From Malacoraja senta (Eukaryota), in contig CM075994.1 in assembly GCA_038087875.1 (NCBI GenBank), positions 930,001 through 994,000 on the forward strand: a DNA stretch of 64,000 nucleotides, written 5' to 3'. The notes under the pieces were generated by a model. The model was not told where the DNA came from, did not search any database, and was given only the letters and a program-made list of their open reading frames with translations. Below, piece after piece: positions 1,938 to 52,700 of this stretch; within the stretch, counting starts at the first letter, position 1, and every line of letters begins with the position of its first letter. The translations under genes were made by a program, and so were the position numbers.

Positions 1938-3412
1938 ACTGCATACCTGCTCCAACCTCATCTACTGCATGTGTAGGAAGGAACTGCAGATGCTGGTTTA
2001 CGCCGAAGATAGCCACAAAATGCTGGAGTAACGCGGCGGGACAGGCAGCATCTGCGGATAGAAAGAATGGGTGACGTTTCGGGTCGAGAGCCTTCTTCAG
2101 ACTGAGAGACAGTGGAAGGGGACACGCAGAGATATCAAAAGGAAAGGTGTGAAAACGAGACATCAAATGGGACGCTGTTACCGTAAAATACGATAGAACT
2201 TTACTAATGCCAGGAGGGAAAGTATTCTGCTAACAGTCATTAAAAAAAACCAAGATACATTAAATTAAAGTGACGAATGGGAAGGTTTGGGGATGTGCAA
2301 AGATTTGGGAAGGGGGGTGGGGGGTGAAGTGGTATTCTGATCAAGGGAAAAGTAGAATGGACCATTGTTAGCTCGGAGAAGTGGACAACGAAGCAAAGAG
2401 AGATAAATATTTAATCAAAGGGACAGTCAGACTGGTCGGGGAATTAGGATGGGATGGAGAGAGTGGAAAAGCAAGGGTCACTTGGAGTTAGAGAAGTCAA
2501 GCTGGGGTGTAAGCTGCCGAAGCGAAACACGAGGTGCTGTTGCTCCTGTTTGCGCTGGCCCTCACTCTGACAATGGTGGAGGCCCCTGACAGAATGGGTA
2601 GGTGTGCGAATGGGAGGAGGAGTAAAAGTGTTTGGCCACCGGGAGATATCCCAGTTCCCGATGTGGCCTCCTGGACATCGGCAACACAATGTGTAGACTG
2701 GGCGAAAATTTTGCCGAACACTTGCGCTCGGTCCGCCAAGACCTGCTGGATCTCCCGGTTTTTAACCATTCCCTTCCCGTTACCACACTGGCCTTTTTTA
2801 AAATCCTGGGCCTCCTTCACTGCCAGAGTGAGGTCACACGCAAACTGGAGGAACAGCATCTTACAACCCAACGGTATGAACATTGAATACTCCGATTTTA
2901 GGTAACCTTTCACCAACCTCCCGCAAAGCCCATTCCATTCTACCCCACACCACCCCTCTCTCTTCGCACGCCTCCCCGCTCCTGTTCCCCGCACAGCACT
3001 AAAGACCTGGGTTCGACTCTGACTTTGGTGTGTCTGTGTGTAGTATGAACATTCTGCCTGTGACTGCGTGGGTTTTATCCAGGTGCTCCGGATTGCTCCC
3101 ACACTCCACTGGTCTGATTGCAAAAGTTAGAGGAAACCTTGGGCACCCGGAGATACCCACGATGTCACGGGGACAACGGCCAATCTCAGGGCAGACTGCA
3201 CCCGTAGTCAGAATCGAACCCGGGTCTCTGGCAGCAACTCTACCGCTGCGCCACCGTGCCGACCCGCTGCGTTACTCCAGCGTTTTGTGTTTATCTTTCC
3301 TCCATTTGCTGCCTGACCCGCTGAGTTACATCCAGCGTTTTGTATATCTATTTTTCTTTCCAGGGCCGCTGCCTGACCCGCTGAGTCACCCCGGCGTTTC
3401 TTGTCCTTTCAG
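1938..3412 (+). mobile_element. Composite Penelope-like remnant filling intron 2
   Basis: Plus-strand GIY-YIG remnant TCSNLIYC / RCGLLDIGNTMCRLGENFAEHLRSVRQ...LQPNGMNIEYSDFR*, split by a minus-strand Penelope 3' end (about 1971-2645). Then two inverted SINE heads (about 3000-3260) and three tandem terminal pieces up to the acceptor. Confidence 0.75.
2071..2104 (-). ncRNA. Penelope-type minimal hammerhead ribozyme motif
   Basis: Minus strand reads cagt-CTGAAGA-aggctctcgaccc-GAAAC-GTC-ac. Paralogues at 14410-14443, 22937-22970 (mutated) and 39544-39577; deleted in unit 5. Confidence 0.6.
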
Positions 3413-12839: not shown

Positions 12840-15800
12840 ATGGGAACGTACGCACTTCACATCGAGATCTTCTACCCGATTATTGCAGTCATTGGTGTGC
12901 CTGGTAAGTCATTTCATTTAATGTAGCGGTGGTTTTCTCTCCGTCCCTCCCCCACCCTAGTTGTCGTACTAGTTTCACTGTCGTCTTATTGAGTTTCACT
13001 GTCTGTACAACTCGTTATCCCCTAGCCCTCATCCAACAATGGGCCATCATGGGCTCTCCATTTTCTTGATCATCGTTACTTTATGAATAGCTTTCATTCA
13101 TTTGCTCTTTATCTCTCTCTATCACCGACTATATCTCTCGTTTTCTTTTCTCCTTACTGGTCTGAAATAAAGGTCTCGACCCGAAATGTCACTTATTCCT
13201 TCTCTCCAGAGATGCTGTCTGACCCACTGAGTTAATCCAGCATTTTTGTGCCTCTTACCAGAATGATGCCTGCTTTAGCGGGAATCAGCTACAAGGAGAA
13301 GTCGGACAGACTTGGATTGTTTTCTCTGGAATACCGGAGGTTGAATCTTTCTATGTCTCTTCATAGTTTTTGGCTGCAGTTGATTTCTCTGCATCCATTG
13401 TGCCAGTCAGTGGTCAGAGTCAGGGCAACGATGAGATTGTTCACTTTTGTGCTCTTGGCTTCAATGCTAAGGGAAGACGGATTGCTTCTAACATTGGGCA
13501 GGTAGTCGCTGGTCTGCGCAGGCCCGACGGGCCAAATGGCCTGTTTTCACGCTGTTCCTCTTGTTCCAGAGTTGCTGCCTCACATCGCAAAAGACCTGGG
13601 TTCAGTCCTGACCTCGGGTGTTGTGTATGGCCTGGCTGGAGTGAATGTGAAGAGCCCGCCAAGTCTACTGTAACATTCAGTCATGGCTGATCTATCTTCC
13701 CCTGATCACCCCCATTCTCCTGCCTTTACCCCCTATCCTTTAACCACCGTATTGATCAAGAACCTGTCAATCTCCGGTTAAGAACTACCCAAAAGACTTG
13801 GATCGTATTCAGTTCAGTTGAATTTAGTTCATTATCACGTGTACCGAGGTACAGTGAAAAGCTTTTTTTGCGTGCTAACCAGTCAGCGGAAATACAATAC
13901 ATGATTACAATCGAGCCATTTCCAGTGTACAGATAATAGATAAGGGAATGACTTTCAGTGCAAGGTAAAGCCAGCAAAGTCCGGTCACACATGGTCCGTG
14001 TCACTAATGAGGTAGAAAGTAGTTCAGGACTGCTGAAATTCTGGTTACATTTATTGCCGTTCCCTACAGATGCAGTCCCCTACGCCTCTATCCCATTTCC
14101 CTCTTGCTTCTCGCCGTTGTGTGTTTCCTTACAGCCAACCTGATGTCCTTGGTGATCCTGTTCCGAGGAAAGTGCGGTCTCTCCAAAGACATCACCTGCT
14201 ACATGATGGCCATGGCGATGGGTGATCTCATGGTGTTGGTCTTCAACGTCATAGTCAGCCAGTTAGTCAGGTACGTACTGCATACCTGCTCCAACCTCAT
14301 CTACTGCATGTGTAGGAAGGAACTGCAGATGCTGGTTTACGCCGAAGATAGCCACAAAATGCTGGAGTAACGCGGCGGGACAGGCAGCATCTGCGGATAG
14401 AAAGAATGGGTGACGTTTCGGGTCGAGAGCCTTCTTCAGACTGAGAGACAGTGGAAGGGGACACGCAGAGATATCAAAAGGAAAGGTGTGAAAACGAGAC
14501 ATCAAATGGGACGCTGTTACCGTAAAATACGATAGAACTTTACTAAACCCAGGAGGGAAAGTATTCTGCTAACAGTCATAAAAAAAAACAAGATACATTA
14601 AATTAAAGTGACGAATGGGAAGGTTTGGGGATGTGCAAAGATTTGGGAAGGGGGGTGGGGGGTGAAGTGGTATTCTGATCAAGGGAAAAGTAGAATGGAC
14701 CATTGTTAGCTCGGAGAAGTGGACAACGAAGCAAAGAGAGATAAATATTTAATCAAAGGGACAGTCAGACTGGTCGGGGAATTAGGATGGGATGGAGAGA
14801 GTGGAAAAGCAAGGGTCACTTGGAGTTAGAGAAGTCAAGCTGGGGTGTAAGCTGCCCAAGCGAAATACGAGGTGCTGTTGCTCCTGTTTGCGCTGGCCCT
14901 CACTCTGACAATGGAGGAGGCCCCTGACAGAATGGGTAGGTGTGCGAATGGGAGGAGGAGTAAAAGTGTTTGGCCACCGGGAGATATCCCAGTTCCCGAT
15001 GTGGCCTCCTGGACATCGGCAACACAATGTGTAGACTGGGCGAAAATTTCGCCGAACACTTGCGCTCGGTCCGCCAAGACCTGCTGGATCTCCCGGTTTT
15101 TAACCATTCCCTTCCCGTTACCACACTGGCCTTTTTTAAAATCCTGGGCCTCCTTCACTGCCAGAGTGAGGCCACACGCAAACTGGAGGAACAGCATCTT
15201 ACAACCCAACGGTATGAACATTGAATACTCCGATTTTAGGTAACCTTTCACCAACCTCCCGCAAAGCCCATTCCATTCTACCCCACACTACCCCTCTCTC
15301 TTCGCACGCCTCCCCGCTCCTGTTCCCCGCACAGCACTAAAGACCTGGGTTCGACTCTGACTTTGGTGTGTCTGTGTGTAGTATGAACATTCTGCCTGTG
15401 ACTGCGTGGGTTTTATCCAGGTGCTCCGGATTGCTCCCACACTCCACTGGTCTGATTGCAAAAGTTAGAGGAAACCTTGGGCACCCGGAGATACCCACGA
15501 TGTCACGGGGACAACGGCCAATCTCAGGGCAGACTGCACCCGTAGTCAGAATCGAACCCGGGTCTCTGGCAGCAACTCTACCGCTGCGCCACCGTGCCGA
15601 CCCGCTGCGTTACTCCAGCGTTTTGTGTTTATCTTTCCTCCATTTGCTGCCTGACCCGCTGAGCTACTCCAGCGTTTTGTATCTATTTTTCTTTCCAGGG
15701 CCGCTGCCTGACCCGCTGAGTCACCCCGGCGTTTCTTGTCCTTTCAGGTACCACTTCCCCGGGTCTCCGCTCCGCTACACGCCCGTGTGCCGGCTCAGTG

Positions 15801-21334: not shown

Positions 21335-24300
21335 ATGGGAACGTACGCATTTCACATCGAGATCTTCTACCCGATTATTGCAGTCATTGGTGTGCCTTGT
21401 AAGTTATTTCATTTAATGTAGCGGTGGTTTTCACTCCGTCCCTCCCCCACCCTAGTTGTCGTACTAGTTTCACTGTCGTCTTATTGAGTTTCACTGTCTG
21501 TATAACTCGTTATCACCTAGCCCTCATCCAACAATGGGCCATCATGGGCTCTCCATTTCCTTGATCATCGTTACTTTATGCATAGCTTTCATTTATTTGC
21601 TCTTTATCTCTCTCTATCACCGACTGTATCTCTCGTTTTCTTTTCTCCTTACTGGCCTGAAATAAAGGTCTCGACCCGAAATGTCACTTATTCCTTCTCT
21701 CCAGAGATGCTGTCTGACCCACTGAGTTAATCCAGCATTTTTGTGCCTCTTACCAGAATGATGCCTGCTTTAGCGGGAATCAGCTACAAGGAGAAGTCGG
21801 ACAGACTTGGATTGTTTTCCCTGGAATACCGCAGGTTGAATGGAGACCTTCTATGTCTCTTCATTGTTTTTGGCTGCAGTTGATTTCTCTGCATCCATTG
21901 TGCCAGTCAGTGGTCAGAGTCAGGGCAACGGTGAGATTGTTCACTTTTGTGCTCTTGGTTTCAATGCTAAGGGAAGACGGATTGCTTCTAACATCGGGCA
22001 GCTAGTCGCTGGTCTGCGCAGACCCGACGGGCCGAATGGCCCGTTTTCACCCTTATTGTCTAAAATTAGGTGTAGCACCGTGGCGCAGAGGGAGAGTTGC
22101 TGCCTCACATCGCAAAAGACCTGGGTTCAGTCCTGACCTCGGGTGTTGTGTATGGCCTGGATGGAGTGAATGTGAAGAGCCCGTCAAGTCTACTGTAACA
22201 TTCAGTCATGGCCGATCTATCTTCCCCTGATCACCCCCATTCTCCTGCCTTTTCCCCCTATCCTTTCACAACCTTATTGATCAAGAACCTGTCAATCTAC
22301 GGTTAAGAAATACCCAAATGACTTGGATCGTATTCAGTTCAGTGGAATTTAGTACATTATCACGTGTACCGAGGTACAGTGAAAAGCGTTTCTTGCGTGC
22401 TAACCAGTCAGCGGAAATACAATACATGATTACAATCGAGCCATTTCCAGTGTACAGATACATGATAAGGGAATGACGTTCAGTGCAAGTTAAAGCCATC
22501 AAAGTCCGGTCACACATGGTCCGTGTGTCACCAATGAGTTAAAAAGTAGTTCAGGACTGCTGAAATTCTGGTTACATTTATTGCCGTTCCCTACAGATGC
22601 AGTCCCCTACGCCTCTATCCCATTTCCCTCTTGCTTCTCGCCGTTGTGTGTTTCCTTACAGCCAACTTGATGTCCTTGGTGATCCTATTTCGAGGAAAGT
22701 GCGTTCTCTCCAAAGACATCACCTGCTACATGATGGCCATGGCGATGGGTGATCTCATGGTGTTGGTCTTCAACGTCATAGTCAGCCAGATAGTCAGGTA
22801 CGTACTGGATACCTGCTCCAACCTCATCTACTGCATGTGTAGGAAGGAACTGCAGATGCTGGTTTACGCCGAAGATAGACACAAAATGCTGGAGTAACGC
22901 GGCGGGACAGGCAGCACCTGCGGATAGAAAGAATGGGTGAGGTTTCGGGTCGAGAGCCTTCTTCAGACTGAGAGTCAGTGGAGGGGGACACGCAGAGATA
23001 TGAAAAGGATAGGTGTGAAAACGAGACATCAAATGGGACGCTGATACCATACAATACGATAGAACTTTACTAATCCCAGGAGGGAAAGTATTCTGCTAAC
23101 AGTCATAAAAAAACAAGATACATTAAATTAAAGTGACGAATGGAAAGGTTTGGGGATGTGCAAAGATTTGGGAAGGGGGGTGGGGGGTGAAGAGGTATTC
23201 TGATCAAGGGAAAAGTAGAATGGACCATTGTTAGCTCGGGGAAGTGGACAACGAAGCAAAGAGAGATAAATATTTAATCAAAGGGACAGTCAGACTGGTC
23301 GGGGAATTAGGATGCGATGGAGAGAGAGGAAAAGCAAGGGTCACTTGGAGTTAGAGAAGTCAAGCTGGGGTGTAAGCTGCCCAAGCGAAACACGAGGTGC
23401 TGTTGCTCCTGTTTGCGCTGGGCCTCACTCTGACAATGGAGGCGGCCCCTGACAGAATGGGTAGGTGTGCGAATGGGAGGAGGAGTAAAAGTGTTTGGCC
23501 ACCGGGAGATATCCCAGTTCCCGATGTGGCCTCCTGGACATCGGCAAGACAATGTGTAGACTGGGCGAAAATTTCGCCGAACACTTGTGCTCGGTCCGCC
23601 AAGACCTGCTGGATCTCCCGGTTTTTAACCATTCCCTTCCCGTTACCACACTGACCTTTTTTTTAAAATCCTGGGCCTCCTTCACTGCCAGAGTGAGGCC
23701 ACACGCAAACTGGAGGAACAGCATCTTACAACCCAACGGTATGAACATTGAATACTCCGATTTTAGGTAACCTTTCACCAACCTCCCCCAAAGCCCATTC
23801 CATTCTACCCCACACCACCCCTCTCTCTTCCCACGCCTCCCCGCTCCTGTTCCCCTGCACAGCACTAAAGACCTGGGTTCGACTGACTTTGGTGTGTCTG
23901 TGTGTAGTATGAACATTCTGCCTGTGACTGCGTGGGTTTTATCCGGATGCTCCGGATTGCTCCCACACTCCACTGGTCTGATTGCAAAAGTTAGAGGAAA
24001 CCTTGGGCACCCGGAGAATACCCACGATGTCACGGGGAAAACGGCCAATCTCCGGGCAGACTGCACCCGTAGTGAGAATCGAACCCGGGGCTCTGGCAGC
24101 AACTCTACCGCTGCGCCACCGTGCCGACCCGCCGCGTTACTCCGGCGTTTTGTGTTTATCTTTCCTCCATTTGCTGCCTGACCCGCTGAGTTACTCCAGC
24201 GTTTTGTATCTATATTTCTTTCCAGAGCCGCTGCCTGACCCGCTGAGTCACCCCGGCGTTTCTTGTCCTTTCGGGTACCACTTCCCCGGGTCTCCGCTCC

Positions 24301-25064
24301 GCTACACGCCCGTGTGCCGGCTCAGTGCCTCCCTGCAAGGCTTCAGTTTCCAGCTCAATACCTGGTTCACCGTGTTCTTCACGTGTGACCGTTTCGTGGC
24401 TATCTGTTGCCGGAAGCTGAGGCGCACGTATTGCACCGAGAGAACGGCGGCCTTGGTGCTAGCGGCGGTAGGAATCGTCAGTGTGTTGACGAACGCGCCC
24501 TTGCCTCTCCGCTACCGGCCCTGTCACACCGTTCACCGTGTGGCCCACGGTTGCTGCCCTGTGCCGGGTCACCTGGAATCCCCGCTGTGGTCCGCCCATC
24601 GCTGGACCTCCAACCTCCTCATCACCTTGCTCCCCATCCCCGCCCTGCTGCTGCTGAATTCGCTGACCGCCAGACACATCCTGTGGGCTAGCAGGGCCCG
24701 ACTGGCCTTGAAGGACTCTTGCCAGGGGGGCGGGGGCGACGACCCCGAGGTCAGGAGCCGGAGGGCTTCGGTCGCCCTGCTGTTCGCCGTCTCCGGGAGC
24801 TTCGTGGCGCTGGCCGTTCCCATCACGGTGATCCACGCCTGGGTGGGGGTGAGCGCGACGGTGATGTTCCGCTGCCCCCGCTCGCTGTACGCGGCCGTGC
24901 AAGTCGCGATGTTGCTGAAGTGCCTCGGTTCCTGCACAAACACCTGTGTGTACGCCCTCACCCAGAGCAGGTTCAGAGCGGAGTTGAACGCCCTGCTCAC
25001 GTCCTCCTTCACTGCTCTGTGCATAGGTGTTAAGGTGAGGGGGAAAGATGTACGAGGAACCTGA
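21335..25064 (+). CDS. GPR139/GPR142-like GPCR, copy 3 (exons open, exon 3 acceptor GG)
   Basis: Exons 21335-21398, 22662-22797 and 24275-25064 have no stops or indels. Acceptor reads tttcGG and the exon 1 donor is T|GTAAGT. Functional status uncertain. Confidence 0.7.
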
Positions 25065-25844: not shown

Positions 25845-27050
25845 ATCATCATTGAATCATTGAACCATTGAATCATTCAACCATTGAATCATTGAATCAT
25901 TGAACCTTTGAATCATTCAACCATTCAGCCAGTGAACCATTGAATCATTGAACCAGTCAGCCATTGAGCCATTGAGCCATTCAATCATTGAACCATTGAG
26001 CCATTGAATCATTGAACCAATGAGCCATTGAACCATTGAACTATTGCGCCTTTGAATCATTGAATCATTGACTCATTGAATTATTGAGCCATTGCCCCAA
26101 TAAGCCATTGAACCATTGAATCATTCAACCATTGAGCCATTATAACCATATAACCATATAACAATTACAGCAAGGAAACAGGCCATCTCGGCCCTTGTAG
26201 TCCGTGCCGAACACTTACTCTCACCTAGTCCCATCTACCTGCACTCAGACCATAAGCCATTGAACCATTGAAACAAGGAATCATTGAATAATTGAACGAT
26301 TGAGCCATTGAATCATTGAACCATTGAACGATTGAGCCATTGAGCCATTGAACCATTGAATCATTGAGCCATTTGTCCTTTAATCTGGTTGATCACAAAC
26401 TCTGTTCTCATTGGGTCCATTCGAAGCGGGGAGAAATCTCGTCTGCACGGAGTAAATAACATTAATTGAATCATTGAACCACAGAACCATTGAATCATTG
26501 AGCCAATGAATCATTGGATCATTGAATCATTGAACCGTTGAACCGTTGAGCCATTGAGCCATTGAACCATTGAACCATTGAATCACCGAATCATTGAACC
26601 ATCGAATCATTGAACAATTGTATCATTGACCCATCAAAACATCGAACCGTTGAACCATTGAATCGTGAAATCATTAAATCATTGAACCATTGAGCCATTG
26701 AACCATTGAACCATTGAGCCATTGAATCATTGAATCATTGAATCATTGAACCGTTGAACCGTTGAGCCATTGAGCCATTGAACCGTTGAGCCATTGAACG
26801 ATGGAGCCATTGAATCATTGAATCATTGAATCATTGAATCATTGAGTCATTGAGCCATTGAATCATTGAATCATTGAATCATTGAACCATTGAGCCATTG
26901 AGCCATTGAATCATGGAGCCATTGAACCATTGAGCCATTGAATCGTTGAACCATAGAGCCATTGAGCCATTTAGCCATTAAGCCATTGAACCATTGAGCC
27001 ATTGAATCGTTGAACCATAGAGCCATTGAACCAATGAACCATTGAGCCAT
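25845..27050. repeat. 8-bp minisatellite, unit 3
   Basis: As 4981-6137. Confidence 0.95.
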
Positions 27051-33194: not shown

Positions 33195-36100
33195 ATGGGA
33201 ACGTACGCACTTCACATCGAGATCTTCTACCCGATTATTGCAGTCATTGGTGTGCCTGGTAAGTCATTTCATTTAATGTAGCGGTGGTTTTCTCTCCGTG
33301 CCTCCCTCCCCCACCCTAGTTGTCGTATTAGTTTCACTGTCGTCTTATTGAGTTTCACTCTCTGTATAACTCGTTATCACCTAGCCCTCATCCAACAATG
33401 GGCCATCATGGGCTCTCCATTTCATTGATCATCGTTACTTTATGCATAGCTTTCATTCATTTGCTCTTTATATCTCTCCATCACCGACTATATCTCTCGT
33501 TTTCTTTTCTCCTTACTGGTCTGAAATAAAGGACTCGACCCGAAATGTCACGTATTCCTTCGCTCCGGAGATGCTGTCTGACCCACTGAGTTAATCCAGC
33601 ATTTGTGTGCCTCTTAGCAGAATGACGCCTGCTTTAGCGGGAATCAGCTACAAGGAGAAGTCGGACAGACTTGGATTGTTTTCTCTGGAATACCGGAGGT
33701 TAAATGGAGACCTTCTATGTCTCTTCATTGTTTTTGGCTGCAGTTGATTTATCTGCATCCATTGTGCCAGTCAGTGGTCAGAGTCAGGGCAACGATGAGA
33801 TTATTCACTTTTGTGCTCTTGGTTTCAATGCTAAGGGAAGACGGATTGCTTCTAACATTGGGCAGGTAGTCGCTGGTCTGCGCAGGCCCGACGGGCCGAA
33901 AGGCCTGTTTTCACTCTTATTGTCTAAAATTAGGTGTAGCACCGTGGCGCAGATGGAGAGTTGCTGCCTCACATCGCAAAAGACCTGGGTTCAGTCCTGA
34001 CCTCGGGTATTGTGTATGGCCTGGATGGAGTGAATGTGAAGAACCCGTCAAGTCTACTGTAACATTCAGTCATGGCTGATCTATCTTCCCCTGATCACCC
34101 CCATTCTCCTGCCTTTTCCCCCTATCCTTTAACAACCTTATTGATCAAGAGCCTGTCAATCTCCGGTTAACAAATACCCAAATGACTTGGATCGTATTCA
34201 GTTCAGTTGAAATTAGTTCATTATCACGTGTACCGAGGTACAGTGAAAAGCTTTTGTTGCGTGCTAACCAGTCAGCGGAAATCGCGATTACAATCGAGCC
34301 ATTTCCAGTGTACAGATACATGATAAGGGAATGACGTTCAGTGCAAGGTAAAGCCATCAAAGTCCGGTCACACATGGTCCGAGTGTCACCAATGAGGTAG
34401 AAAGTAGTTCAGGACTGCTGAAATTATTGTTACATTTATTGCCGTTCCCTACAGATGCAGTCCCCTACGCCTCTATCCCATTTCCCTCTTGCTTCTCGCC
34501 GTTGTGTGTTTCCTTACAGCCAACTTGATGTCCTTGGTGATCCTGTTTCGAGGAAAGTGCTGTCTCTCCAAAGACATCACCTGCTACATGATGGCCATGG
34601 CGATGGGTGATCTCTTGGTGTTGGTCTTCAACGTCATAGTCAGCCAGATAGTCAGGTACTGTAAAGAATCTATAACGAGGCATCGTTACTTTACTATCTT
34701 TATTCATACTGGAGCATTACATATTGCACTAGCTGTACGTGGTCTGTCACAGGAACTAGAGAGCGATCTGTGGGTGGGGAGGTTGTAGTTATACTTGTGA
34801 TATGGGGAGTGGTTAGTAGGTATGAGGTCACTATGTTAAAGGCACATGCATATATCATCTACATCCTTCCCCTCCGAATCGACAGGCAAATACAATGGTG
34901 ACAGGGCGACCACGGCTCATGCGCTAGGATGGTTAAACAAAATCGCCATAGCGGACAGGCGGTTTCGCAAGACGTCCCGACCGGGTTCGCGTCTCGCCAT
35001 CCTCCCTTCCGGCAGGAGGAAGAGGCACCGATGGGGACAGACGAACCTGAAAGGGGGAAACGGGAGGAGACGGAGGAGACCGCGGCACCAAACCCGGAGG
35101 TGATGCGGGATCAGGAGCGGGCAGTGCGCGGGCAGGCGAGCGAGGACTAGTCGGAGCAGGGTGGGACGGAAGGAGTTGAGGAGGTGCAGAACGTTGCATG
35201 TTAGGAAGGACGGGCAGAGCAACGCCCGGACGCGAAGCCGGCAGTGGGGGAGCAAAGGGATCCGCCGCAGGAGGACGCGGCTCGTTGAAGAGCCAAAGGT
35301 GCTGGCGGGACCGTCGGTAAATGGCTCCCGCATGGTCGACGAGATAAGACCTGGGCGACCCCGCAGAGCCGACGACGGTGGCGAGCTTGGAGTGACCGGA
35401 AGTGGTCTGCATACGGACAACTTGACCGGGGAAGAGGCGCGGCAGCGGGTGGCAGGACCTGTCATGGGAACGCTTTTGGACATTGTGCCTGAATGCAATG
35501 CGTTTCTGAACCGCCGCAGGTGGGAGGACGGAGGGTATGAGGGAGCGCTGGGCCACCGGGAGCGGGAGCCTGGTAGCGCGAGACATGAGCCGCTGAGCAG
35601 GGGAACCCATGGCAGAGTCGCGGAAAATGTTGCGGAGGTTGAGGAGGGCCAGATGGAAGTCGGAGTTAATGCCACCACACTGTTCCAGCAGGTGCTTCGC
35701 GCTGCGGACGGCACGCTCGGCCAGACCGTTGCTTTGCGGGTACTCCGGGCTGCTGGTGAAATGGCGGAAGTTCCAACTGGAAGCGAACGCTTTAAACTCG
35801 GAGCTCGTGAACTGGCTGCCATTGTCCGATTGCAGGCTTGCCGGGGGGCCAAAAGTGCCAAAATGAGGGTACAACCTGTCGATGATGGCCGAAGAGGTTA
35901 GGGAGTGCAGCCGGTCGACCACAAACCAGCTGGAGTAGGAGTCAACGAGAACCAGGAAGTGTTTGCCTCGCCACTCGAAAATGTCGGCGGCGAGCGCCAT
36001 CCAGGGCAGTTCGGGCGCGGGCTGCTGCAGAAGCGGCTGACGCTGCTGGTGGGGGGCGAGGCTGTTGCAGGTGGAACACGAGGAGACCCTCTCCCGGATG

Positions 36101-39100
36101 TATTTGGCCATGTCCGGCCAATAGAACTGGCTCCTGGCGAGAGACACGGTGGCTTCGGCCCCAGGATGACCGCGGTGAGCGACTTGAAAATAGTGGTCGT
36201 GCAGCGCCGCGGGCACGACCACCTTGTGACCCTTCACCACCACGCCGTCGTGTAGTACGAGCTCATCACGGACCAGGAAGTAGGGCACGGCACCAGCCGG
36301 CAGTGCGGAACGACGGTCGGGCCAGCCCCGCTGGATGACGGCAGACAGCTGTTGCAGGGCCGGGTCATTGGTAGTGTGTTCAACCAGGGACTTCATCTGT
36401 TGTGAAGGGACGATGTCCATTTGGAGCACCAATAGATCAGACATCTCATATGGGTGGCGAACGGTGGACGACAGCGGGGCGCGAGACAACGTGTCGGCCA
36501 CGAACATGTCCTTGCCCTTACGATAAACCACCGTGAACGTGAAGCGCTGGAGCTGCAGCATCATGCGCTGTAGGCGTGATGAGGCCACATGGATCGACTT
36601 GTTGAGGATGGTGACAAGTGGCTGATGGTCAGTTTCAATGGTGAAAGTGTTGCCCACGATGTAGTCTCTGAATTTGGAGCAGGCAAACACCACGGCCAGT
36701 AGCTCCTTCTCAATCTGCGCGTAGTGCTGTTCGGTGACGGTCATGGTGCGGGATGCGAAGGAGACAGGCAGCTGTAGGCCGTCATGGACCTGGAGACAGG
36801 CGGCACCGAGTCCGAACTGAGAGGCGTCGCAGGTGAGGACAATGGGACGCTGCAGGTCAAAAAACTTGAGCGTGGGGGTGCTGATCAGCTTGGACTTAAG
36901 AATGTCGAATGCTTTCTGATGGTGGGGGAACCAAGCCCAGGACGTGTCCTTTTTTATCAAATCCCTCAGGGGAGCGCTGAGCTCCCTGAGGTCGGGGATG
37001 AACTTCCCCAGGTAGTTTACCAAGCCCAGGAAGCGTTGTAGGCCTGCCACATTAGTAGGAGAAGGCATCCCTGAAATGGCAGCCGTTTTTTGCGGGTCTG
37101 GCTTTAACCCCTCGGCGGTGAATACATGTCCAACATAGGTGACCTCCGGGACGCGGAATCGGCACTTCTTGGGGTTAAGTTTCAAGTTGATTTGCCGGGC
37201 CCGGTCCAGGACCTGGCGGAGGTTGACATCGTGTTCGGCAACGTCCTTACCGTAAACGAGGATGTCGTCAACAATGATGGCGCACGGTAGACCTGAAAAC
37301 AACTGCTCCATTGTCCGCTGGAATACCTCGCTGGCAGAGTTGATTCCGAATGGCATTCGGAGGAACCGAAACCTCCCGTAGGGGGTGGCGAAAGTTGTCA
37401 AAATGGACGACTGCTCGTCCAGTGGTATCTGCCAGAAGGAGCTTTTGGCATCGAGGACAGAAAAAACCGTTGCCGGACCAACCTGTGCAGCGACTTCTTC
37501 TACCGTTCTCATGGGGTAGTGCGGGCGTCTAATGGCCAGGTTGAGGTCTTTGGGGTTGATGCAGATGCGTATCTCGCTCATGTCCTTTTTCGCAGCAACA
37601 ACCATGGAAGAGACCCACCTGGTGGGCTCGATGACCACCTTTAGGATGCCCATTTGTACCATACTGTGTAGTGTCGACTCCACTCTGTCCTTCATGGCGA
37701 AGGCGACACGGTGAGGAGCATTGACCACTGGATCGATCTTACGGTCCACTACAATCTTGTAGCTGCAGGGTAGTTTGCCTAGCTCATCATCAAAGCGGTC
37801 GGGATAATCGGCCAGCGGGTCCATGAGGGCCTGCACCTGGTGGATGTCACGGTGGAAGGATACTAGTCCCATTTCCTGGCATGCCCGGATGCCCAGCAGG
37901 GGAATGCATTTTTGATCGAGGAGATAGAAGGTGAGGGGCCGAGAGGTCTCTAGTATCTTACAGCGTAGCGTGGCCTTGCCCACAGGAGTAAGAATCTCCC
38001 CCCCCCCGTAGGCATGCAAGGTTGAGTTCTGAGAAAAAATCTGCTCATTAGTCCTTATCTGTTTGAAGACAGATGTTGACATTACGTTCGCAACCGCCCC
38101 CGTGTCAATCTTAGCAGTGAAGGTCGAGTTGTTCACAGTGACTCGCACAGAAGGGTCCGTTATCATAGCAGGTGCGCCCAACACAGTATACAAGCTGTTC
38201 TCCCCCTGAGAGGAGTCGGATGCAGAAACAGACTGTTCATCGAAATAGCACTGGGAGCTGAGCTCACTATCAGTTTGTAGAAGGTTGTTTAAATTTCCCC
38301 TCGGAGCAGCGACAGGCTTCCCACGGGAGCGCCGCAGCAAAATGGTTCAATTTCTTGCAGAAAGTACACGTTTTACCCAAGGCAGGGCACACATTGTATT
38401 GATGAGTGGTGAAGTTGCAATTAGGGCACCTTTCCCGGGTACCTCCCCCGGGAGCAGTAACGAACCCCGGGGCACGTCCCCCTCGAGCAGCGAGCGACCC
38501 CGGGGGCCGCGAGCGGGGCGTGTTCATCAGATGACTGGGAGTGCTGGCACAGTTAATCGCCTGTTCAGCCGGTGACACCGCCGAGGTGACAGCTTCAGCT
38601 AAGCGAGTGGCGTGCATCGCATCGTTAAAAGTCAGATCCGGCTTGCGCAGAAGTTCGGCCCTGAGCTTATCATCGCGGAGACCGTAAACTAGAAGGTCCC
38701 TGATAATCTCATCGGGGGTCCACGTGTGGAGGCGGCAGCGCCTGGCCAGGTGGCGCAGCGCAGAGACATAGTTCTCAGCATTTTCCCCAGGTAGCTGACG
38801 CCGCGCGAACAGTTTAAAACGTTCTAAGATGCAGTTTGTTGGGATATCACAAATAGCATCAAACTTAGCCACCAGACATACCGGGTCCCGAGCTGATTCT
38901 CCAGCAGCGTAGACGAAGAAGTCAGAGCGAGTCAGGGCCTCGGGACCAGCCAAGTTGAGAAGCAGAGAGGCTTTGAGATCAGCGGTGGCGGCAGGATGAG
39001 CGATCGTGACATAGTGTTCAAAGTCACGTTTGAATACGTCCCATCGAAGGGCGATGTCTAAATCGAAAACGAGCACATCAGGCTTACGGGCAGAAGAGGC

Positions 39101-41674
39101 CATAACAAAGAAATGGGAGGGCGGGGGAAACAAAAAAACTGGGACAGAATTAAATGATAAACCGATAAACAGGAGGCGCAAGGTAAGTGGTTTGACACCA
39201 TGTAAAAATCTATAACGAGGCATCGTTACTTTACTATCTTTATTCATACTGGAGCATTACATATTGCACTAGCTGTACGTGGTCTGTCACAGGAACTAGA
39301 GAGCGATCTGTGTTTGGGGAGGTTGTAGTTATACTTGTGATATGGGGAGTGGTTAGTAGGTATGAGGTCACTATGTTAAAGGCACATGCATATATCATCT
39401 ACAGGTACGTACTGGATACCTGCTCCAACCTCATCTACTGCATATGTAGGAAGGAACTGCAGATGCTGGTTTACGCCGAAGATAGCCACAAAATGCTTGA
39501 GTAACGCGGCGGGACAGGCAGCATCTGCGGATAGAAAGAATGGGTGACGTTTCGGATCGAGAGCCTTCTTCAGACTGAGAGACAGTGGAAGGGGACACGC
39601 AGAGATATGAAAAGGAAAGGTGTGAAAACGAGACATCAAATGGGACGCTGTTACCCTACAATACGATAGAACTTTACTAATCCCAGGAGGGAAAGTATTA
39701 TGCTAACAGTCATAAAAAAAACAAGGTACATTAAATTAAAGTGACGAATGGAAAGGTTTGGGGATGTGCAAAGATTTGGGAAGGGGGGTGGGTGTGAAGT
39801 GGTATTCTGATCAAGGGAAATGTAGAATGGACAATTGTTAGCTGGGGGAAGTGGACAACGAAGCAAAGAGAGATAAATATTTAATCAAAGGGACAGTCAG
39901 ACTGGTCGGGGAATTAGGATGGGATGGAGAGAGAGGAAAAGCAATGGTCACTTGGAGTTAGAGAAGTCAAGCTGGGGTGTAAGCTGCCCAAGCGAAACAC
40001 GAGGTGCTGTTGCTCCTGTTTGCGCTGGGCCTCACTCTGACAATGGAGGAGGCCCCTGACAGAATGGGTAGGTGTGCGAATGGGAGGAGGAGTAAAAGTG
40101 TTTGGCCACCGGGAGATATCCCAGTTCCCGATGTGGCCTCCTGGACGTCGGCAAGACAATGTGTAGACTGGGCGAAAATTTCGCCGAACACTTGCGCTCG
40201 GTCCGCCAAGACCTGCTGGATCTCCCGGTTCTTAACCATTCCCTTCCCGTTACCACACTGACCTTTTTTTTTTTAAATCCTGGGCCTCCTTCACTGCCAG
40301 AATGAGGCCACACGCAAACTGGAGGAACAGCATCTTACAACCCAACGGTATGAACATTGAATACTCCGATTTTAGGTAACCCTTCACCAACCTCCCCCAA
40401 AGCCCATTCCATTCTACCCCATACCACCCCTCTCTCTTCCCACGCCTCCCCGCTCCTGTTCCCCGCACAGCACTAAAGACCTGGGTTCGACTCTGACCTT
40501 GGTGTGTCTGTGTGTAGTATGAACATTCTGCATGTGACTGCGTGGGTTTTATCCAGTTGCTCCGGATTGCTCCCACACTCCACTGGTCTGATTGCAAAAG
40601 TTAGAGGAAACCTTGGGCACCCGGAGAATACCCACGATGTCACGGGGACAACGGCCAATCTCCGGGCAGACTGCACCCGTAGTCAGAATCGAACCCGGGA
40701 CTCTGACAGCAACTCTACCGCTGCGCCACCGTGCCGACCCGTTGCGTTACTCCAGCGTTTTGTGTTTATCTTTCCTCCATTTGTTGCCTGACCCGCTGAG
40801 CTACTCCAGCGTTTTGTATCTATTTTTCTTTCCAGGGCCGCTGCCTGACCCGCTGAGTCACCCCGGCGTTTCTTGTCCTTTCGGGTACCACTTCCCCGGG
40901 TCTCCGCTCCGCTACACGCCCGTGTGCCGGCTCAGTGCCTACGTGCAAGGCTTCAGTTTCCAGCTCAATACCTGGTTCACCGTGTCCTTCACGTGTGACC
41001 GTTTCGTGGCTATCTGTTGCCGGAAGCTGAGGCGCACGTATTGCACCGAGCGAACCGCGGCGATGGTGTTAGCGGCGGTAGGAATGGTCAGTGTGTTGAC
41101 GAACGCGCCCTTGCCTCTCCGCTACCGGCCCTGTCACACCGTTCACCGTGTAGCCTACGGTTGCTGCCCTGTGCCGGGTCACCTGGAATCCCCACTGTGG
41201 TCCGCCCATCGCTGGGCCTCCAACCTCCTCAACACCTTCCTCCCCATCCCCGCCCTGCTGCTGCTGAGTTCGCTGACCGCCAGACACATCCTGTGGGCTA
41301 GCAGGGCCCGACTGGCCCTGAAGGGCCCTCTCCAGGGGGGCGGGGGCAACGACCCCGAGGTCAGGAGCCGGAGGGCTTCGGTCGCCCTGCTGTTCGCCGT
41401 CTCCGGGAGCTTCGTGGCGCTGGCCGTTCCCATCACGGTGATCCACGCCTGGGTGGGGGTGAGCGGGACGGTGATGTTCCGCGGTCCCCGCTCGCTGTAC
41501 GCGGCCGTGCAAGTCGCGATGCTGCTGAAGTGCCTCGGTTCCTGCACAAACACCTGTGTGTACGCCCTCACCCAGAGCAGGTTCAGAGCGCAGTTGAAAG
41601 CCCTGCTCACACCCCCCTTCGCTGCTCTGTGCATAGGTGTTAAGGTGAGGGGGAAAGATGTACGAGGAACCTGA
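33195..41674 (+). CDS. GPR139/GPR142-like GPCR, copy 4 (Gypsy in intron 2 donor, acceptor GG)
   Basis: Exons 33195-33258, 34520-34655 and 40885-41674 are open. Functional status uncertain. Confidence 0.68.
34660..34863 (-). repeat. Gypsy 3' LTR (204 bp)
   Basis: Differs from the other LTR by 2 substitutions and 1 indel; PPT adjacent. Confidence 0.95.
34933..38340 (-). CDS. pol: Gypsy Pol (protease, RT, RNase H, integrase)
   Basis: KIDTGA; LDAKSSFWQIP, RMPFG, IVDD; CDAS, YAQIEKE, TDHQPL; HRGH...CSTC, VDSYS, SDNGSQF, NGLAERAV. Confidence 0.93.
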   Translation of the reverse strand: MLRRSRGKPVAAPRGNLNNLLQTDSELSSQCYFDEQSVSASDSSQGENSLYTVLGAPAMITDPSVRVTVNNSTFTAKIDTGAVANVMSTSVFKQIRTNEQIFSQNSTLHAYGGGEILTPVGKATLRCKILETSRPLTFYLLDQKCIPLLGIRACQEMGLVSFHRDIHQVQALMDPLADYPDRFDDELGKLPCSYKIVVDRKIDPVVNAPHRVAFAMKDRVESTLHSMVQMGILKVVIEPTRWVSSMVVAAKKDMSEIRICINPKDLNLAIRRPHYPMRTVEEVAAQVGPATVFSVLDAKSSFWQIPLDEQSSILTTFATPYGRFRFLRMPFGINSASEVFQRTMEQLFSGLPCAIIVDDILVYGKDVAEHDVNLRQVLDRARQINLKLNPKKCRFRVPEVTYVGHVFTAEGLKPDPQKTAAISGMPSPTNVAGLQRFLGLVNYLGKFIPDLRELSAPLRDLIKKDTSWAWFPHHQKAFDILKSKLISTPTLKFFDLQRPIVLTCDASQFGLGAACLQVHDGLQLPVSFASRTMTVTEQHYAQIEKELLAVVFACSKFRDYIVGNTFTIETDHQPLVTILNKSIHVASSRLQRMMLQLQRFTFTVVYRKGKDMFVADTLSRAPLSSTVRHPYEMSDLLVLQMDIVPSQQMKSLVEHTTNDPALQQLSAVIQRGWPDRRSALPAGAVPYFLVRDELVLHDGVVVKGHKVVVPAALHDHYFQVAHRGHPGAEATVSLARSQFYWPDMAKYIRERVSSCSTCNSLAPHQQRQPLLQQPAPELPWMALAADIFEWRGKHFLVLVDSYSSWFVVDRLHSLTSSAIIDRLYPHFGTFGPPASLQSDNGSQFTSSEFKAFASSWNFRHFTSSPEYPQSNGLAERAVRSAKHLLEQCGGINSDFHLALLNLRNIFRDSAMGSPAQRLMSRATRLPLPVAQRSLIPSVLPPAAVQKRIAFRHNVQKRSHDRSCHPLPRLFPGQVVRMQTTSGHSKLATVVGSAGSPRSYLVDHAGAIYRRSRQHLWLFNEPRPPAADPFAPPLPASRPGVALPVLPNMQRSAPPQLLPSHPAPTSPRSPARALPAPDPASPPGLVPRSPPSPPVSPFQVRLSPSVPLPPAGREDGETRTRSGRLAKPPVRYGDFV
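38270..39103 (-). CDS. gag: Gypsy Gag (likely start MASSARKP at 39103)
   Basis: ERFKLFARRQLPGE...LRHLARRC, IRDLLVYGL; zinc knuckles CPNC...H...C and CTFCKKLNH, the second lacking its last Cys at the frameshift. Confidence 0.85.
   Translation of the reverse strand: MASSARKPDVLVFDLDIALRWDVFKRDFEHYVTIAHPAATADLKASLLLNLAGPEALTRSDFFVYAAGESARDPVCLVAKFDAICDIPTNCILERFKLFARRQLPGENAENYVSALRHLARRCRLHTWTPDEIIRDLLVYGLRDDKLRAELLRKPDLTFNDAMHATRLAEAVTSAVSPAEQAINCASTPSHLMNTPRSRPPGSLAARGGRAPGFVTAPGGGTRERCPNCNFTTHQYNVCPALGKTCTFCKKLNHFAAALPWEACRCSEGKFKQPSTN
39201..39403 (-). repeat. Gypsy 5' LTR (203 bp)
   Basis: Direct repeat of 34660-34863; PBS adjacent. Confidence 0.95.
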
Positions 41675-49740: not shown

Positions 49741-52700
49741 ATGGGAACGTACGCACTTCACATCGAGATCTTCTACCCGATTATTGCAGTCATTGGTGTG
49801 CCTGGTAAGTCATTTTAATGTAGCGGTGGTTTTCTCTCTGTCCCTCCCCCACCCTAGTTGTCGTACTAGTTTCACTGTCGTCTTATTGAGTTTCACTGTC
49901 TGTATAACTCGTTATCACCTAGCCCTCATCCAACAATGGGCCATCATGGGCTCTCCATTTCCTTGATCATCGTTACTTTATGAATAGCTTTCATTCATTT
50001 GCTCTTTATCTCTCTCTATCACCGACTATATCTCTCGTTTTCTTTTCTCCTTACTGGTCTGAAATAAAGGTCTCGACCCGAAATGTCACTTATTCCTTCT
50101 CTCCAGAGATGCTGTCTGACCCACTGAGTTAATCCAGCATTTGTGTGCCTCTTAGCAGAATGATGCCTGCTTTAGCGGGAATCAGCTACAAGGAGAAGTC
50201 GGACCGACTTGGATTGTTTTCTCTGGAATACCGGAGGTTGAATGGAGACCTTCTATGGCTCTTCATTGTTTTTGGCTGCAGTTGATTTCTCTGCATCCAT
50301 TGTGCCAGTCAGTGGTCAGAGTCAGGGCAACGATGAGATTGTTCACTTTTGTGCTCTTGGTTTCAATGCTAAGGGAAGACGGATTGCTTCTAACATTGGG
50401 CAGGTAGTCGCTGGTCTGCGCAGGCCCTACGGGACGAAAGGCCTGTTTTCACTCTTATTGTCTAAAATTAGGTGTAGCACCGTGGCGCAGATGGAGAGTT
50501 GCTGCCTCACATCGCAAAAGACCTGGGTTCAGTCCTGACCTCGGGTGTTGTGTATGGCCTAGATGGAATGAATGTGAAGAACCCGTCAAGTCTACTGTAA
50601 CATTCAGTCATGGCTGATCTATCTTCCCCTGATCACCCCCATTCTCCTGCCTTTTCCCCCTATCCTTTAACAACCTTATTGATCAAGAGCCTGTCAATCT
50701 CCGGTTAACAAATACCCAAATGACTTGGATCGTATTCAGTTCAGTTGAAATTAGTTCATTATCACGTGTACCGAGGTACAGTGAAAAGCTTTTGTTGCGT
50801 GCTAACCAGTCAGCGGAAATCGCGATTACAATCGAGCCATTTCCAGTGTACAGATACATGATAAGGGAATGACGTTCAGTGCAAGGTAAAGCCATCAAAG
50901 TCCGGTCACACATGGTCCGAGTGTCACCAATGAGGTAGAAAGTAGTTCAGGACTGCTGAAATTATTGTTACATTTATTGCCGTTCCCTACAAATGCAGTC
51001 CCCTACGCCTCTATCCCATTTCGCTCTTGCTTCTCGCCGTTGTGTGTTTCCTTACAGCCAACTTGATGTCCTTGGTGATCCTGTTTCGAGGAAAGTGCGG
51101 TCTCTCCAAAGACATCACCTGCTACATGATGGCCATGGCGATGGGTGATCTCATGGTGTTGGTCTTCAACGTCATAGTCAGCCAGATAGTCAGGTACGTA
51201 CTGGATACCTGCTCCAACCTCATCTACTGCATGTGTAGGAAGGAACTGCAGACTGAGAGACAGTGAGGGCCACGCAGAGATATGAAAAGGAAAGGTGCGA
51301 AAACGAGACATCAAATGGGACGCTGTTACCGTACAATATGATAGAACTTTACTAATCCCAAGGAGGGAAAGTATTCTGCTAACAGTCATAAAAAAAACAA
51401 GATACATTAAATTAAAGTGACGAATGGAAAGGTTTGGGGATGTGCAAAGATTTGGAAGGGGGGTGGGTGGTGAAGTGGTATTCTGATCAAGGGAAAAGTA
51501 GAATGGACCATTGTTAGCTCGGGGAAGTGGACAACGAAGCAAAGAGAGATAAATATTTAATCAAAGGGACAGTCAAACTGGTCGGGGAATTAGGATGGGA
51601 TGGAGAGAGAGGAAAAGCAAGGGTCACTTGGAGTTAGAGAAGTCAAGCTGGGGTGTAAGCTGCCCAAGCGAAACACGAGGTGCTGTTGCTCCTGTTTGCG
51701 CTGGGCCTCACTCTGACAATGGAGGAGGCCCCTGACAGAATGGGTAGGTGTGCGAATGGGAGGAGGAGTAAAAGTGTTTGGCCACCGGGAGATATCCCAG
51801 TTCCCGATGTGGCCTCCTGGACATCGGCAACACAATGTGTAGACTGGGCGAAAATTTCGCCGAACACTTGCGCTCGGTCGGCCAAGACCTGCTGGAACTC
51901 CCGGTTTTTAACCATTCCCTTCCCGTTACAGCACTGACCTTTTTTTTTAATCCTGGGCCTCCTTCACTGCCAGAGTGAGGCCACACGCAAACTTGAGGAA
52001 CAGCATCTTACAACCCAACGGTATGAACATTGAATACTCCGATTTTAGGTAACCTTTCACCAACCTCCCGCAAAGCCCATTCCATTCTACCCCACATCAC
52101 CCTCTCTCTTCCCACGCTTCCCCGCTCCTGTTCCCCGCACAGCACTAAAGACCTGGGTTCGACTCTGACCTTGGTGTGTCTGTGTGTAGTTTGTACATTC
52201 TGCCTGTGACTGCGTGGGTTTTATCCGGGTGCTCCGGGTTGCTCCCACACTCCGAAAACGTGCACGTTTGTAGGTTCATTGCCTTTTGTAAAATCTCCCC
52301 TGGTCTGTTTGCAAAAGTTAGAGGAAACCTTGGGCACCCGGAGAATACCCACGATGTCACGGGGCGAATGGCCAATCTCCGGGCAGACTGCACCCGTAGT
52401 CAGAATCGAACCCGGGTCTCTGGCAGCAACTCTACCGCTGCGCCACCGTGCCGACCCGCTGAGTTACTCCAGCGTTTTGTATCTATTTTTCTTTCACGAG
52501 CCGCTGCCTGACCCGCTGAGTCACCGCGGCGTTTCTTGTCCTTTCGGGTACCACTTCCCCGAGTCTCCGCTCCGCTACACGCCCGTGTGCCGGCTCAGTG
52601 CCTACCTGCAAGGCTTCAGTTTCCAGCTCAATACCTGGTTCACCGTGGCCTTCACGTGTGACCGTTTCGTGGCTATCTGTTGCCGGAAGCTGAGGCGCAC

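What the first reader, a model, noticed from the sequence alone, without database searches (positions are those of the whole stretch)
24200..24330. Exon 3 acceptor is AG in copies 1-2 but GG in copies 3-5
GG at 24273, 40883 and 52546, yet those exons stay open. Either three copies are hidden pseudogenes, or GG is the ancestral TE end (TSD GGTAC) and copies 1-2 gained a precise acceptor. In-frame alternatives exist: TCCAG|C 75 nt upstream (24200, 40810, 52473; +25 aa in ECL1) and CTCAG|T 51 nt downstream (removes the TM3 Cys). The strong ttccAG 49 nt upstream is out of frame. This may capture an intron boundary still being refined.
Basis: partly seen in the sequence, partly recalled or inferred. 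Interest (0 to 1): 0.72.

Follow-up and report, generated by a model that had tools for sequence, protein, structure and literature searches.

The report
Lost splice acceptor in duplicated receptors
Three of five neighbouring copies of a receptor gene, likely from a skate, have GG instead of the usual AG at the end of a likely transposon-made intron; related samples carry AG there, so AG likely came first and the three copies are likely damaged duplicates that still look intact, not an intron still being perfected.

Summary
The direction is likely AG to GG. All contigs laid over the site read A: two samples of organism A (likely this species) and one contig of organism B. Organism A's main contigs follow copies 3-5 at all 10 readable diagnostic sites, but copies 1-2 at this one. 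With AG the junctions carry an 8-nt direct repeat. The repeat-derived intron end is present in 6 of 6 organisms laid; the letter was unreadable in four. Best reading (0.62): one A>G change, inherited by three duplicates, likely sends splicing to an out-of-frame AG or leaves the intron in, making hidden pseudogenes. Copy-private replacements run at the intronic rate, and copy 4 also took an LTR element in its donor. Against: AG copies drift alike, and no stop or frameshift in copies 3-5 is mildly unlikely (P about 0.01-0.05), so leaky GG or in-frame rescue stays open (0.25). No RNA run was listed. The scan had not noted this site before; it noted target-duplication introns in other genomes.

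The parts
24273..24274 (+). GG in place of the AG acceptor of intron 2, copy 3
   Evidence: read as AG in all depth laid from X1, X2 and X3
40883..40884 (+). GG in place of AG, copy 4
52546..52547 (+). GG in place of AG, copy 5
3411..3412 (+). AG acceptor, copy 1 (this copy is frameshifted further down exon 3)
15746..15747 (+). AG acceptor, copy 2, the only copy with canonical sites and an open frame
21335..21398 (+). Exon 1 coding part, copy 3 (64 nt; last base T, G in the other four). Others: 501-564, 12840-12903, 33195-33258, 49741-49804
22662..22797 (+). Exon 2, copy 3 (136 nt, ends TCAG). Others: 1796-1931, 14135-14270, 34520-34655, 51058-51193
22798..24274 (+). Intron 2, copy 3 (1477 nt, phase 2), made largely of repeat DNA: a sense piece of a retroelement (about 22803-22835, resuming near 23510) split by an antisense piece of the same family (about 22835-23510), and terminal units up to the acceptor. 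'Penelope-like' is recalled from motifs; Pfam gave no hit
   Evidence: (depth up to 2e7 against 34-800 in exons)
22794..22801 (+). Left arm of the junction repeat, TCAG|GTAC
24271..24278 (+). Right arm of the junction repeat: TCGG|GTAC here, TCAG|GTAC in copies 1-2
24122..24261 (+). 2.6 tandem 54-nt units of the repeat's end; they supply the branch-like motifs, the pyrimidine tract and the cryptic AGs
24224..24225 (+). Cryptic CAG at -49, out of frame, 10 of 12 pyrimidines; use would stop the protein at about 70 aa; lost in copy 5
24198..24199 (+). Cryptic CAG at -75, in frame (+25 aa, 6 Pro in the 26 residues), 7 of 12 pyrimidines
24246..24247 (+).
24324..24325 (+). Exonic CAG at +51, in frame, removes 17 residues with the Cys before helix 3
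24275..25064 (+). Exon 3 coding part with stop, copy 3 (open). Others begin at 3413, 15748, 40885, 52548
34660..39403 (-). LTR retrotransposon in the intron-2 donor of copy 4; LTRs of 204 and 203 nt, 5-nt target duplication GGTAC, pol with protease, RT, RNase H, integrase in that order

Best explanation
Copies 3-5 share one A-to-G change in the acceptor of intron 2, likely a loss from an ancestral AG, which is predicted to mis-splice their last exon and likely makes them pseudogenes or weak alleles despite open reading frames. Steps: (1, inferred) a retroelement inserted into a coding exon at TCAGGTAC in an ancestor of at least six organisms; the duplicated target gave both GT and AG, and the element's end gave branch site and pyrimidine tract. 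(2, shown) The gene lies here in five tandem copies 1.7-5% apart in coding sequence. (3, inferred) One A>G transition occurred at the base of copies 3-5 and was inherited. (4, predicted) Exon 3 holds the rest of the coding sequence, so skipping it cannot rescue the protein; in copies 3 and 4 the spliceosome most likely takes the strong out-of-frame AG 49 nt upstream (about 70 aa, two helices) or keeps the intron (stop after 33 or 44 residues); copy 5 has only weak alternatives. (5, inferred) Redundancy let this persist; exchange between paralogues and chance keep the exons open.
For: Polarity: at 24273 the G is read as A in 64.2 of 64.2 depth (X1, 3 contigs), 426.7 of 426.7 (X2, 1 contig) and 8.93 of 8.93 (X3, organism B, 1 contig over 24221-24738 with 36 other letters); the fourth run, X24, did not cover it. 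Of 19 other {1,2}|{3,4,5} sites, 10 could be read from the contigs' counts of other letters and all 10 follow copies 3-5, so AG is not tied to the copy 1-2 haplotype. AG completes an 8-nt junction repeat, GG leaves 5. No homogenised tract: identity around the site is 46+57 nt for copies 3/4 and 19+15 for 3/5 and 4/5, but 98+59 for the AG/GG pair 2/4. Relaxed selection: private changes in copies 3-5 are 6 silent to 30 replacement; 1.4% per replacement site against 1.16% in introns, p=0.37, whereas changes shared between copies are 17 to 10 (private against shared p=5e-5) and listed differences in organisms C-F are 6 to 4. Other decay: LTR element at +5 of copy 4's donor, exon-1 donor -1 G>T in copy 3, frameshift in copy 1. 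Single mismatches at U2 dinucleotides usually impair splicing strongly (PMC4176328, passage).
Against: No RNA evidence either way. Copies 3-5 have 36 private substitutions and no stop or frameshift; 2.9-4.8 are expected at intronic rates, P(0)=0.008-0.055 (indels counted by hand; a recount of the lower figure gives 6, P about 0.04). The AG copies drift the same way (0 silent, 8 replacement; p=0.57 against the GG copies), so the substitution pattern does not single out GG. Private changes are if anything richer in replacements than neutral (6 of 44 silent against 0.276, p=0.04), several in the loop and helix that usually line the ligand pocket (by eye), which would fit working, diversifying receptors. 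Only one outgroup contig shows the letter; for organisms C-F it lay within 21 or 5 letters of the aligned end and was not listed. The repeat family itself reads TTCGG at the matching place.
Confidence: 0.62

Rival explanations
1. GG is derived, but copies 3-5 still make working receptors, by leaky use of the GG as a U2 acceptor (strong pyrimidine tract and branch site intact) or by an in-frame cryptic AG at -27 or -75 that lengthens the first outer loop.
For: Open frames in all three (P 0.008-0.055); replacement excess without loss of either loop cysteine, the DRF or the helix-7 motif (by eye); 11 of 12 pyrimidines before the site (measured at the same sequence in the AG copies); copy 5 has lost the out-of-frame decoy at -49; BANP has a used GT-GG acceptor derived from an ancestral AG (PMC4176328, passages).
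Against: The decoy at -49 is as strong as the true site and intact in copies 3 and 4; -27 is a GAG and -75 has 7 of 12 pyrimidines with another AG 7 nt before it; BANP's GG is an alternative site and conserved across vertebrates, this one is not seen in organism B; copy 4's donor is weakened by the LTR element; replacement rate is no lower than intronic rate.
Confidence: 0.25
2. GG is the ancestral end of the inserted element and copies 1-2 gained AG.
For: The element's end aligns TCTTCGG with the junction's TTTCGG, and the match runs on loosely into exon 3; most other {1,2}|{3,4,5} differences appear to have arisen in the copy 1-2 line, so from the window alone this was a fair guess.
Against: Organism B and the main path of organism A have AG; the intron end is shared by six organisms whose exon 3 shows mostly silent change, hard to explain with a dead acceptor; AG gives the longer junction repeat.
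Confidence: 0.05
3. GG is an assembly or polishing error, or a variant private to the sequenced individual spread by very short conversion tracts.
For: No contig with G was laid in X1 or X2; a recent origin would explain the open frames.
Against: The same error in three copies that differ by about 3% and share 19 other markers is unlikely; copy 3's other private letters are missing from the same contigs, so their silence says nothing on GG; no long identical tract.
Confidence: 0.08

Closest known systems
Duplicated (unprocessed) pseudogenes by splice-site loss in tandem receptor arrays; birth-and-death evolution (recalled; the search found no paper with all five terms)
   Same: Young tandem copies, each with its own lesion (frameshift, acceptor loss, retrotransposon at a donor), one intact copy, replacement changes at neutral rate.
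   Different: The lesion is invisible to an ORF-based count, and sits in an intron that is itself likely transposon-made, whose tandem end units supply a ladder of cryptic acceptors.
GT-GG acceptor of BANP (Parada et al., PMC4176328; passages read)
   Same: GG acceptor derived from an ancestral AG in a U2-type intron.
   Different: BANP's site is alternative, supported by transcripts and conserved in most vertebrates; this one is the only proper acceptor of a last coding exon, has no transcript support and is AG in the outgroup.
U12-type GT-GG introns such as ARAF and SLC12A7 (Sheth et al., PMC1557818; table passages)
   Same: GT-GG ends.
   Different: The donor here is GTACGT, a U2 type, not the U12 consensus (consensus recalled).
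Intron gain by transposon insertion with a splice site co-opted from the target duplication (review PMC11282704, passages; Drosophila Doc case PMC3296678, passages; notothenioid slc26a2 PMC12357937, abstract and outline only)
   Same: Repeat-derived intron, direct repeat across both junctions, acceptor AG inside the repeat.
   Different: Here both GT and AG lie in the 8-nt repeat, the element looks like a Penelope-type retroelement (recalled), the host is likely a cartilaginous fish, and the intron-less state was not tested. The word Penelope occurs 0 times in the main text of PMC12130899 and PMC11282704; supplements not seen.
Lineage-specific intron insertions in teleost GPCRs (Kumar et al., PMC3151243; passages)
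   Same: Extra phase-2 intron at an MAG|R site in a rhodopsin-type receptor of a fish.
   Different: Those introns are older and their source is mostly untraced; none concerns later loss of the acceptor in duplicates.

Membership tests
Duplicated pseudogene by splice-site loss | Copy of a gene that keeps exon-intron structure | tested here: met
Duplicated pseudogene by splice-site loss | Derived change in an invariant splice dinucleotide | tested here: met
   GG in copies 3-5; AG in one outgroup contig and four organism-A contigs
Duplicated pseudogene by splice-site loss | Neutral evolution since the lesion | tested here: inconclusive
   Replacement rate equals intron rate, but AG copies do the same and no truncation has arisen
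Duplicated pseudogene by splice-site loss | No correctly spliced, coding transcript | not testable with these tools
   No RNA holder listed
Functional U2-type GT-GG intron (BANP kind) | Spliced reads that end at the GG | not testable with these tools
   No RNA holder listed
Functional U2-type GT-GG intron (BANP kind) | GG kept across species | tested here: not met
   Organism B has AG; C-F unreadable
U12-type GT-GG intron | U12 donor consensus | tested here: not met
   Donor reads GTACGT; consensus recalled
Transposon-born intron with target duplication | Intron made of repeat DNA up to both ends | tested here: met
Transposon-born intron with target duplication | Direct repeat across the junctions that holds the splice signals | tested here: met
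   8 nt in AG copies; both junctions also resemble the element's own sequence, so microhomology may explain part of it
Transposon-born intron with target duplication | Relatives that lack the intron at this place | not tested
   All six organisms laid have the intron end; distant paralogue contigs were not shown as far as the junction
Transposon-born intron with target duplication | Precise splicing shown in RNA | not testable with these tools
   mostly silent differences between species are indirect support
Penelope-like element | GIY-YIG endonuclease | tested here: inconclusive
   Motif-like fragments by eye; 0 Pfam families for 3 of 3 fragments; label recalled
GPR139/GPR142-like class A receptors of cartilaginous fish | Sequence or profile match to named members | not tested
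   No protein search result is on hand; the name is recalled from motifs and exon-1 position; literature searches gave nothing on such an expansion

The most novel reading that the evidence does not exclude
A vertebrate intron born from a retroelement's 8-nt target duplication later lost its AG in three duplicates, which stay functional and diversifying by splicing at a constitutive GT-GG acceptor or at in-frame AGs supplied by the element's tandem end units: a natural, paralogue-controlled AG/GG experiment in the same sequence context, and a traceable intron gain in a cartilaginous fish.
Probability: 0.2. Interest if true: 0.68.

Novelty: new member of a known kind. Interest (0 to 1): 0.36.

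Why it matters
As most likely read, it is an ordinary case of gene decay with a practical lesson: counting open reading frames would call four working receptors here where there may be one. The intron that carries the lesion matters more: intron gains are rare in vertebrates and their source is seldom traceable (PMC3151243, PMC12357937), and this one keeps repeat sequence to both ends and an 8-nt junction repeat in several species. If the GG copies proved to splice in frame, AG and GG paralogues in near-identical context would make the tolerance of the U2 acceptor directly testable.

Tried and rejected
No whole genome is held, so copies outside the window could not be counted. No RNA holder listed among 24 runs; X24, a small run of organism A, gave no exon cover; neither is evidence on expression. 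No exon 2 to exon 3 joint among the 15 joints shown, 1333 not shown. One search was cut too close to the site: the contigs of organisms C-F align from 24253 or 24269, every row listed has 31 or more letters to the end in some run, and 3-5 other letters per contig are unlisted, so the missing row for 24273 is neither AG nor GG. Depth as copy number was considered (exon depth suggests many copies in organism A, about one in B) and not used, as the tool warns. A conversion tract spreading GG was looked for and not found. No trained splice-site scorer was available; strength was judged by pyrimidine counts only. Pfam found nothing in three endonuclease-like fragments and nothing in the 328-aa ORF of the LTR element. 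No sixth receptor copy among 28 ORFs at 55-64 kb (by eye). Paper searches returned 0 papers; others returned nothing on this family or intron (listings seen; passages of PMC12294341 were irrelevant; passages of PMC2882926 only list GT-GG among human splice SNPs). Earlier-findings look-ups were empty. No protein homology or fold result is on hand, so the receptor's family and the intron-less state of its paralogues remain open.

Full report
Setting. The window holds five tandem copies of a three-exon gene on the + strand. The joined exons of copies 2-5 give open frames of 329 residues with the look of a rhodopsin-type receptor (DRF motif, two loop cysteines). The family name GPR139/142-like and the label Penelope-like for the repeat are recalled; no protein search result is on hand, and Pfam gave no hit for 3 of 3 repeat fragments. 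An earlier scan note calls the genome a skate (e1-8584256; not tested). No whole genome is held.

Observation. Confirmed. AG precedes exon 3 in copies 1 and 2, GG in copies 3, 4 and 5, at the coordinates given; the alternatives at -75, -49 and +51 are as described. The three GGs are one shared character: 20 sites between exon 2 and exon 3 split the copies {1,2}|{3,4,5}, this one among them.

The intron. Intron 2 is 1477 nt in copy 3, phase 2, and repeat-derived: depth over most of it is thousands to millions of times that of the exons; its 5' end and middle align to another copy of the same repeat at 19745-19894; its 3' end is 2.6 tandem 54-nt units that align to the element's terminus lying antisense in the same intron. 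With AG, the junctions read TCAG|GTAC on both sides, 4+4 letters; with GG, 1+4. By rough arithmetic with recalled splice-site frequencies an 8-letter match has a chance of about 4e-4. Both junctions also resemble the element's own sequence, so microhomology may account for part of the repeat. The same repeat-derived intron end precedes exon 3 in all 6 organisms laid, A to F. The 10 listed exon-3 differences of organisms C-F that are not copy-3 letters are 6 silent and 4 replacement (p=0.03 against 0.276 silent), indirect support for a working, spliced gene. Relatives without the intron were not examined, so the gain is inferred.

Which came first. One search listed 24 runs; I laid 8 of them. 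At 24273 all depth reads A in X1 (3 contigs), X2 (1 contig) and X3 (organism B, 1 contig, 54 letters from its end, depth 8.93); X24 did not cover it. B also has a contig from exon 2 into the intron. The long contigs of X1 and X2 differ from copy 3 by just the number of letters expected for the majority of the five copies in most records, so organism A is likely this species or very close. Of the 19 other {1,2}|{3,4,5} sites, 10 can be read from those counts (22667, 22690, 22790, 22808, 23144, 23240, 23327, 23831, 24017, 24053) and all follow copies 3-5; nine could not be read, and record 11 of X2 has one unexplained letter. At 24273 alone the contigs follow copies 1-2. So AG goes with the family's common haplotype and with the outgroup, and GG is the odd state. 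For C-F the letter was too near the aligned end to be listed. Contigs drop variants, and copy 3's private letters at 22687, 22704 and 24375-24376 are also missing from them, so the lack of a G contig does not show that GG is an error or absent.

Do the GG copies work? Predicted products: -49, out of frame, stop after 4 residues (copies 3, 4); -47 GAG, out of frame (copies 3, 5); retained intron, stop after 33, 44, 24 residues; -75, +25 residues; -27 GAG, +9; +51, -17 with the conserved Cys. The -49 site has 10-11 of 12 pyrimidines, as many as the true site (11); the in-frame sites have 7-8. Private changes in copies 3-5 are 6 silent and 30 replacement, 1.4% per replacement site against 1.16% in introns (p=0.37); shared changes are 17 and 10. 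That fits loss of constraint, but the AG copies show 0 and 8, no different (p=0.57). Against plain death: with 36 private substitutions, 2.9-4.8 stops or frameshifts are expected and none is seen (P 0.008-0.055; hand-counted indels, AT-rich introns may overstate the exonic rate). Exchange with other copies can keep frames open: exon 3 groups the copies differently from the introns. There is no long identical tract around the GG, so simple inheritance is preferred to recent conversion.

Mechanism committed to. Insertion-born intron with AG from the target duplication (inferred); tandem amplification (shown); one A>G transition at the base of copies 3-5 (inferred from one outgroup and the family majority); mis-splicing to the out-of-frame AG or retention (predicted); persistence through redundancy (inferred). 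Confidence 0.62; in-frame rescue or leaky GG 0.25; error or private variant 0.08; GG ancestral 0.05.

Known cases. A used GT-GG acceptor derived from AG is known in BANP, as an alternative, conserved site (PMC4176328, passages); other GT-GG introns are U12-type (PMC1557818, table passages), which the GTACGT donor here is not. Transposon-born introns with a splice site taken from the target duplication are a known route (PMC11282704 passages; PMC3296678 passages), rare in vertebrates (PMC12130899 passages; PMC3151243 passages; PMC12357937 abstract, reached through note e1-9525204). Note e1-8628956 describes a similar 7-nt duplication intron in another genome (unchecked). Searches found no paper on this gene or intron; most subscription journals and all supplements were not seen, so that is not a claim of absence from print.

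Verdict. Real sequence difference, most likely ordinary splice-site loss in a young receptor array; the 'boundary being refined' reading is not supported. New member of a known kind; interest 0.36, carried mainly by the traceable intron and by the open chance that the GG copies still splice in frame.

Noticed in passing
window 22794-22801 and 24271-24278; runs X1-X3, X5-X7, X11: Intron 2 itself looks like an intron gain from a retroelement: repeat DNA to both ends, an 8-nt junction repeat holding GT and AG, and the same intron end in 6 of 6 organisms laid. Probably of more interest than the GG change.
   Followed up: partly
window 34660-39403: A young LTR retrotransposon (LTRs differ by 2 letters and 1 gap) inserted at GGTAC in copy 4's intron-2 donor. 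Its target duplication leaves GT at the old place and makes a new AG|GT at the element's far end, so the same few bases were hit twice and the second insertion mimics the first.
   Followed up: partly
window about 3850-3856 (copy 1, CDS position 642): 1-nt deletion frameshifts copy 1 after the fifth helix; not checked against reads, so an assembly error is possible. Only copy 2 has canonical sites and an open frame.
   Followed up: no
exon 3 of all copies: Shared-site patterns differ by region: introns group {1,2} (22 and 11 sites), exon 3 groups {3,5} (11), {1,4} (4), {1,5} (3), {2,5} (2): recombination or conversion in the array. Shared changes are mostly silent (17:10), private ones mostly replacements (6:38).
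   Followed up: partly
window about 52497-52500 (copy 5): Two neighbouring letters are swapped so that the strong out-of-frame CAG at -49 is gone, and a 54-nt unit with a branch-like motif is deleted; could be drift or compensation.
   Followed up: no
X3 at 24275; X11 before 24269: Organism B has A as first base of exon 3 (silent, breaks the junction repeat); organism F has a shorter pyrimidine tract before the acceptor.
   Followed up: no
runs X5, X6, X7, X11 over 24362-24452: Several more distant paralogues (about 80-90% alike around the DRF motif) lie in each of these genomes; the ones to check for the intron-less state.
   Followed up: no
window 25850-27051 (and the matching place after each copy): An 8-nt tandem array of about 147 units follows the gene, with differing lengths between copies.
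   Followed up: no
window 54726-56198: 490-aa open frame that reads like the C-terminal part of a CR1-type LINE reverse transcriptase (label recalled).
   Followed up: no
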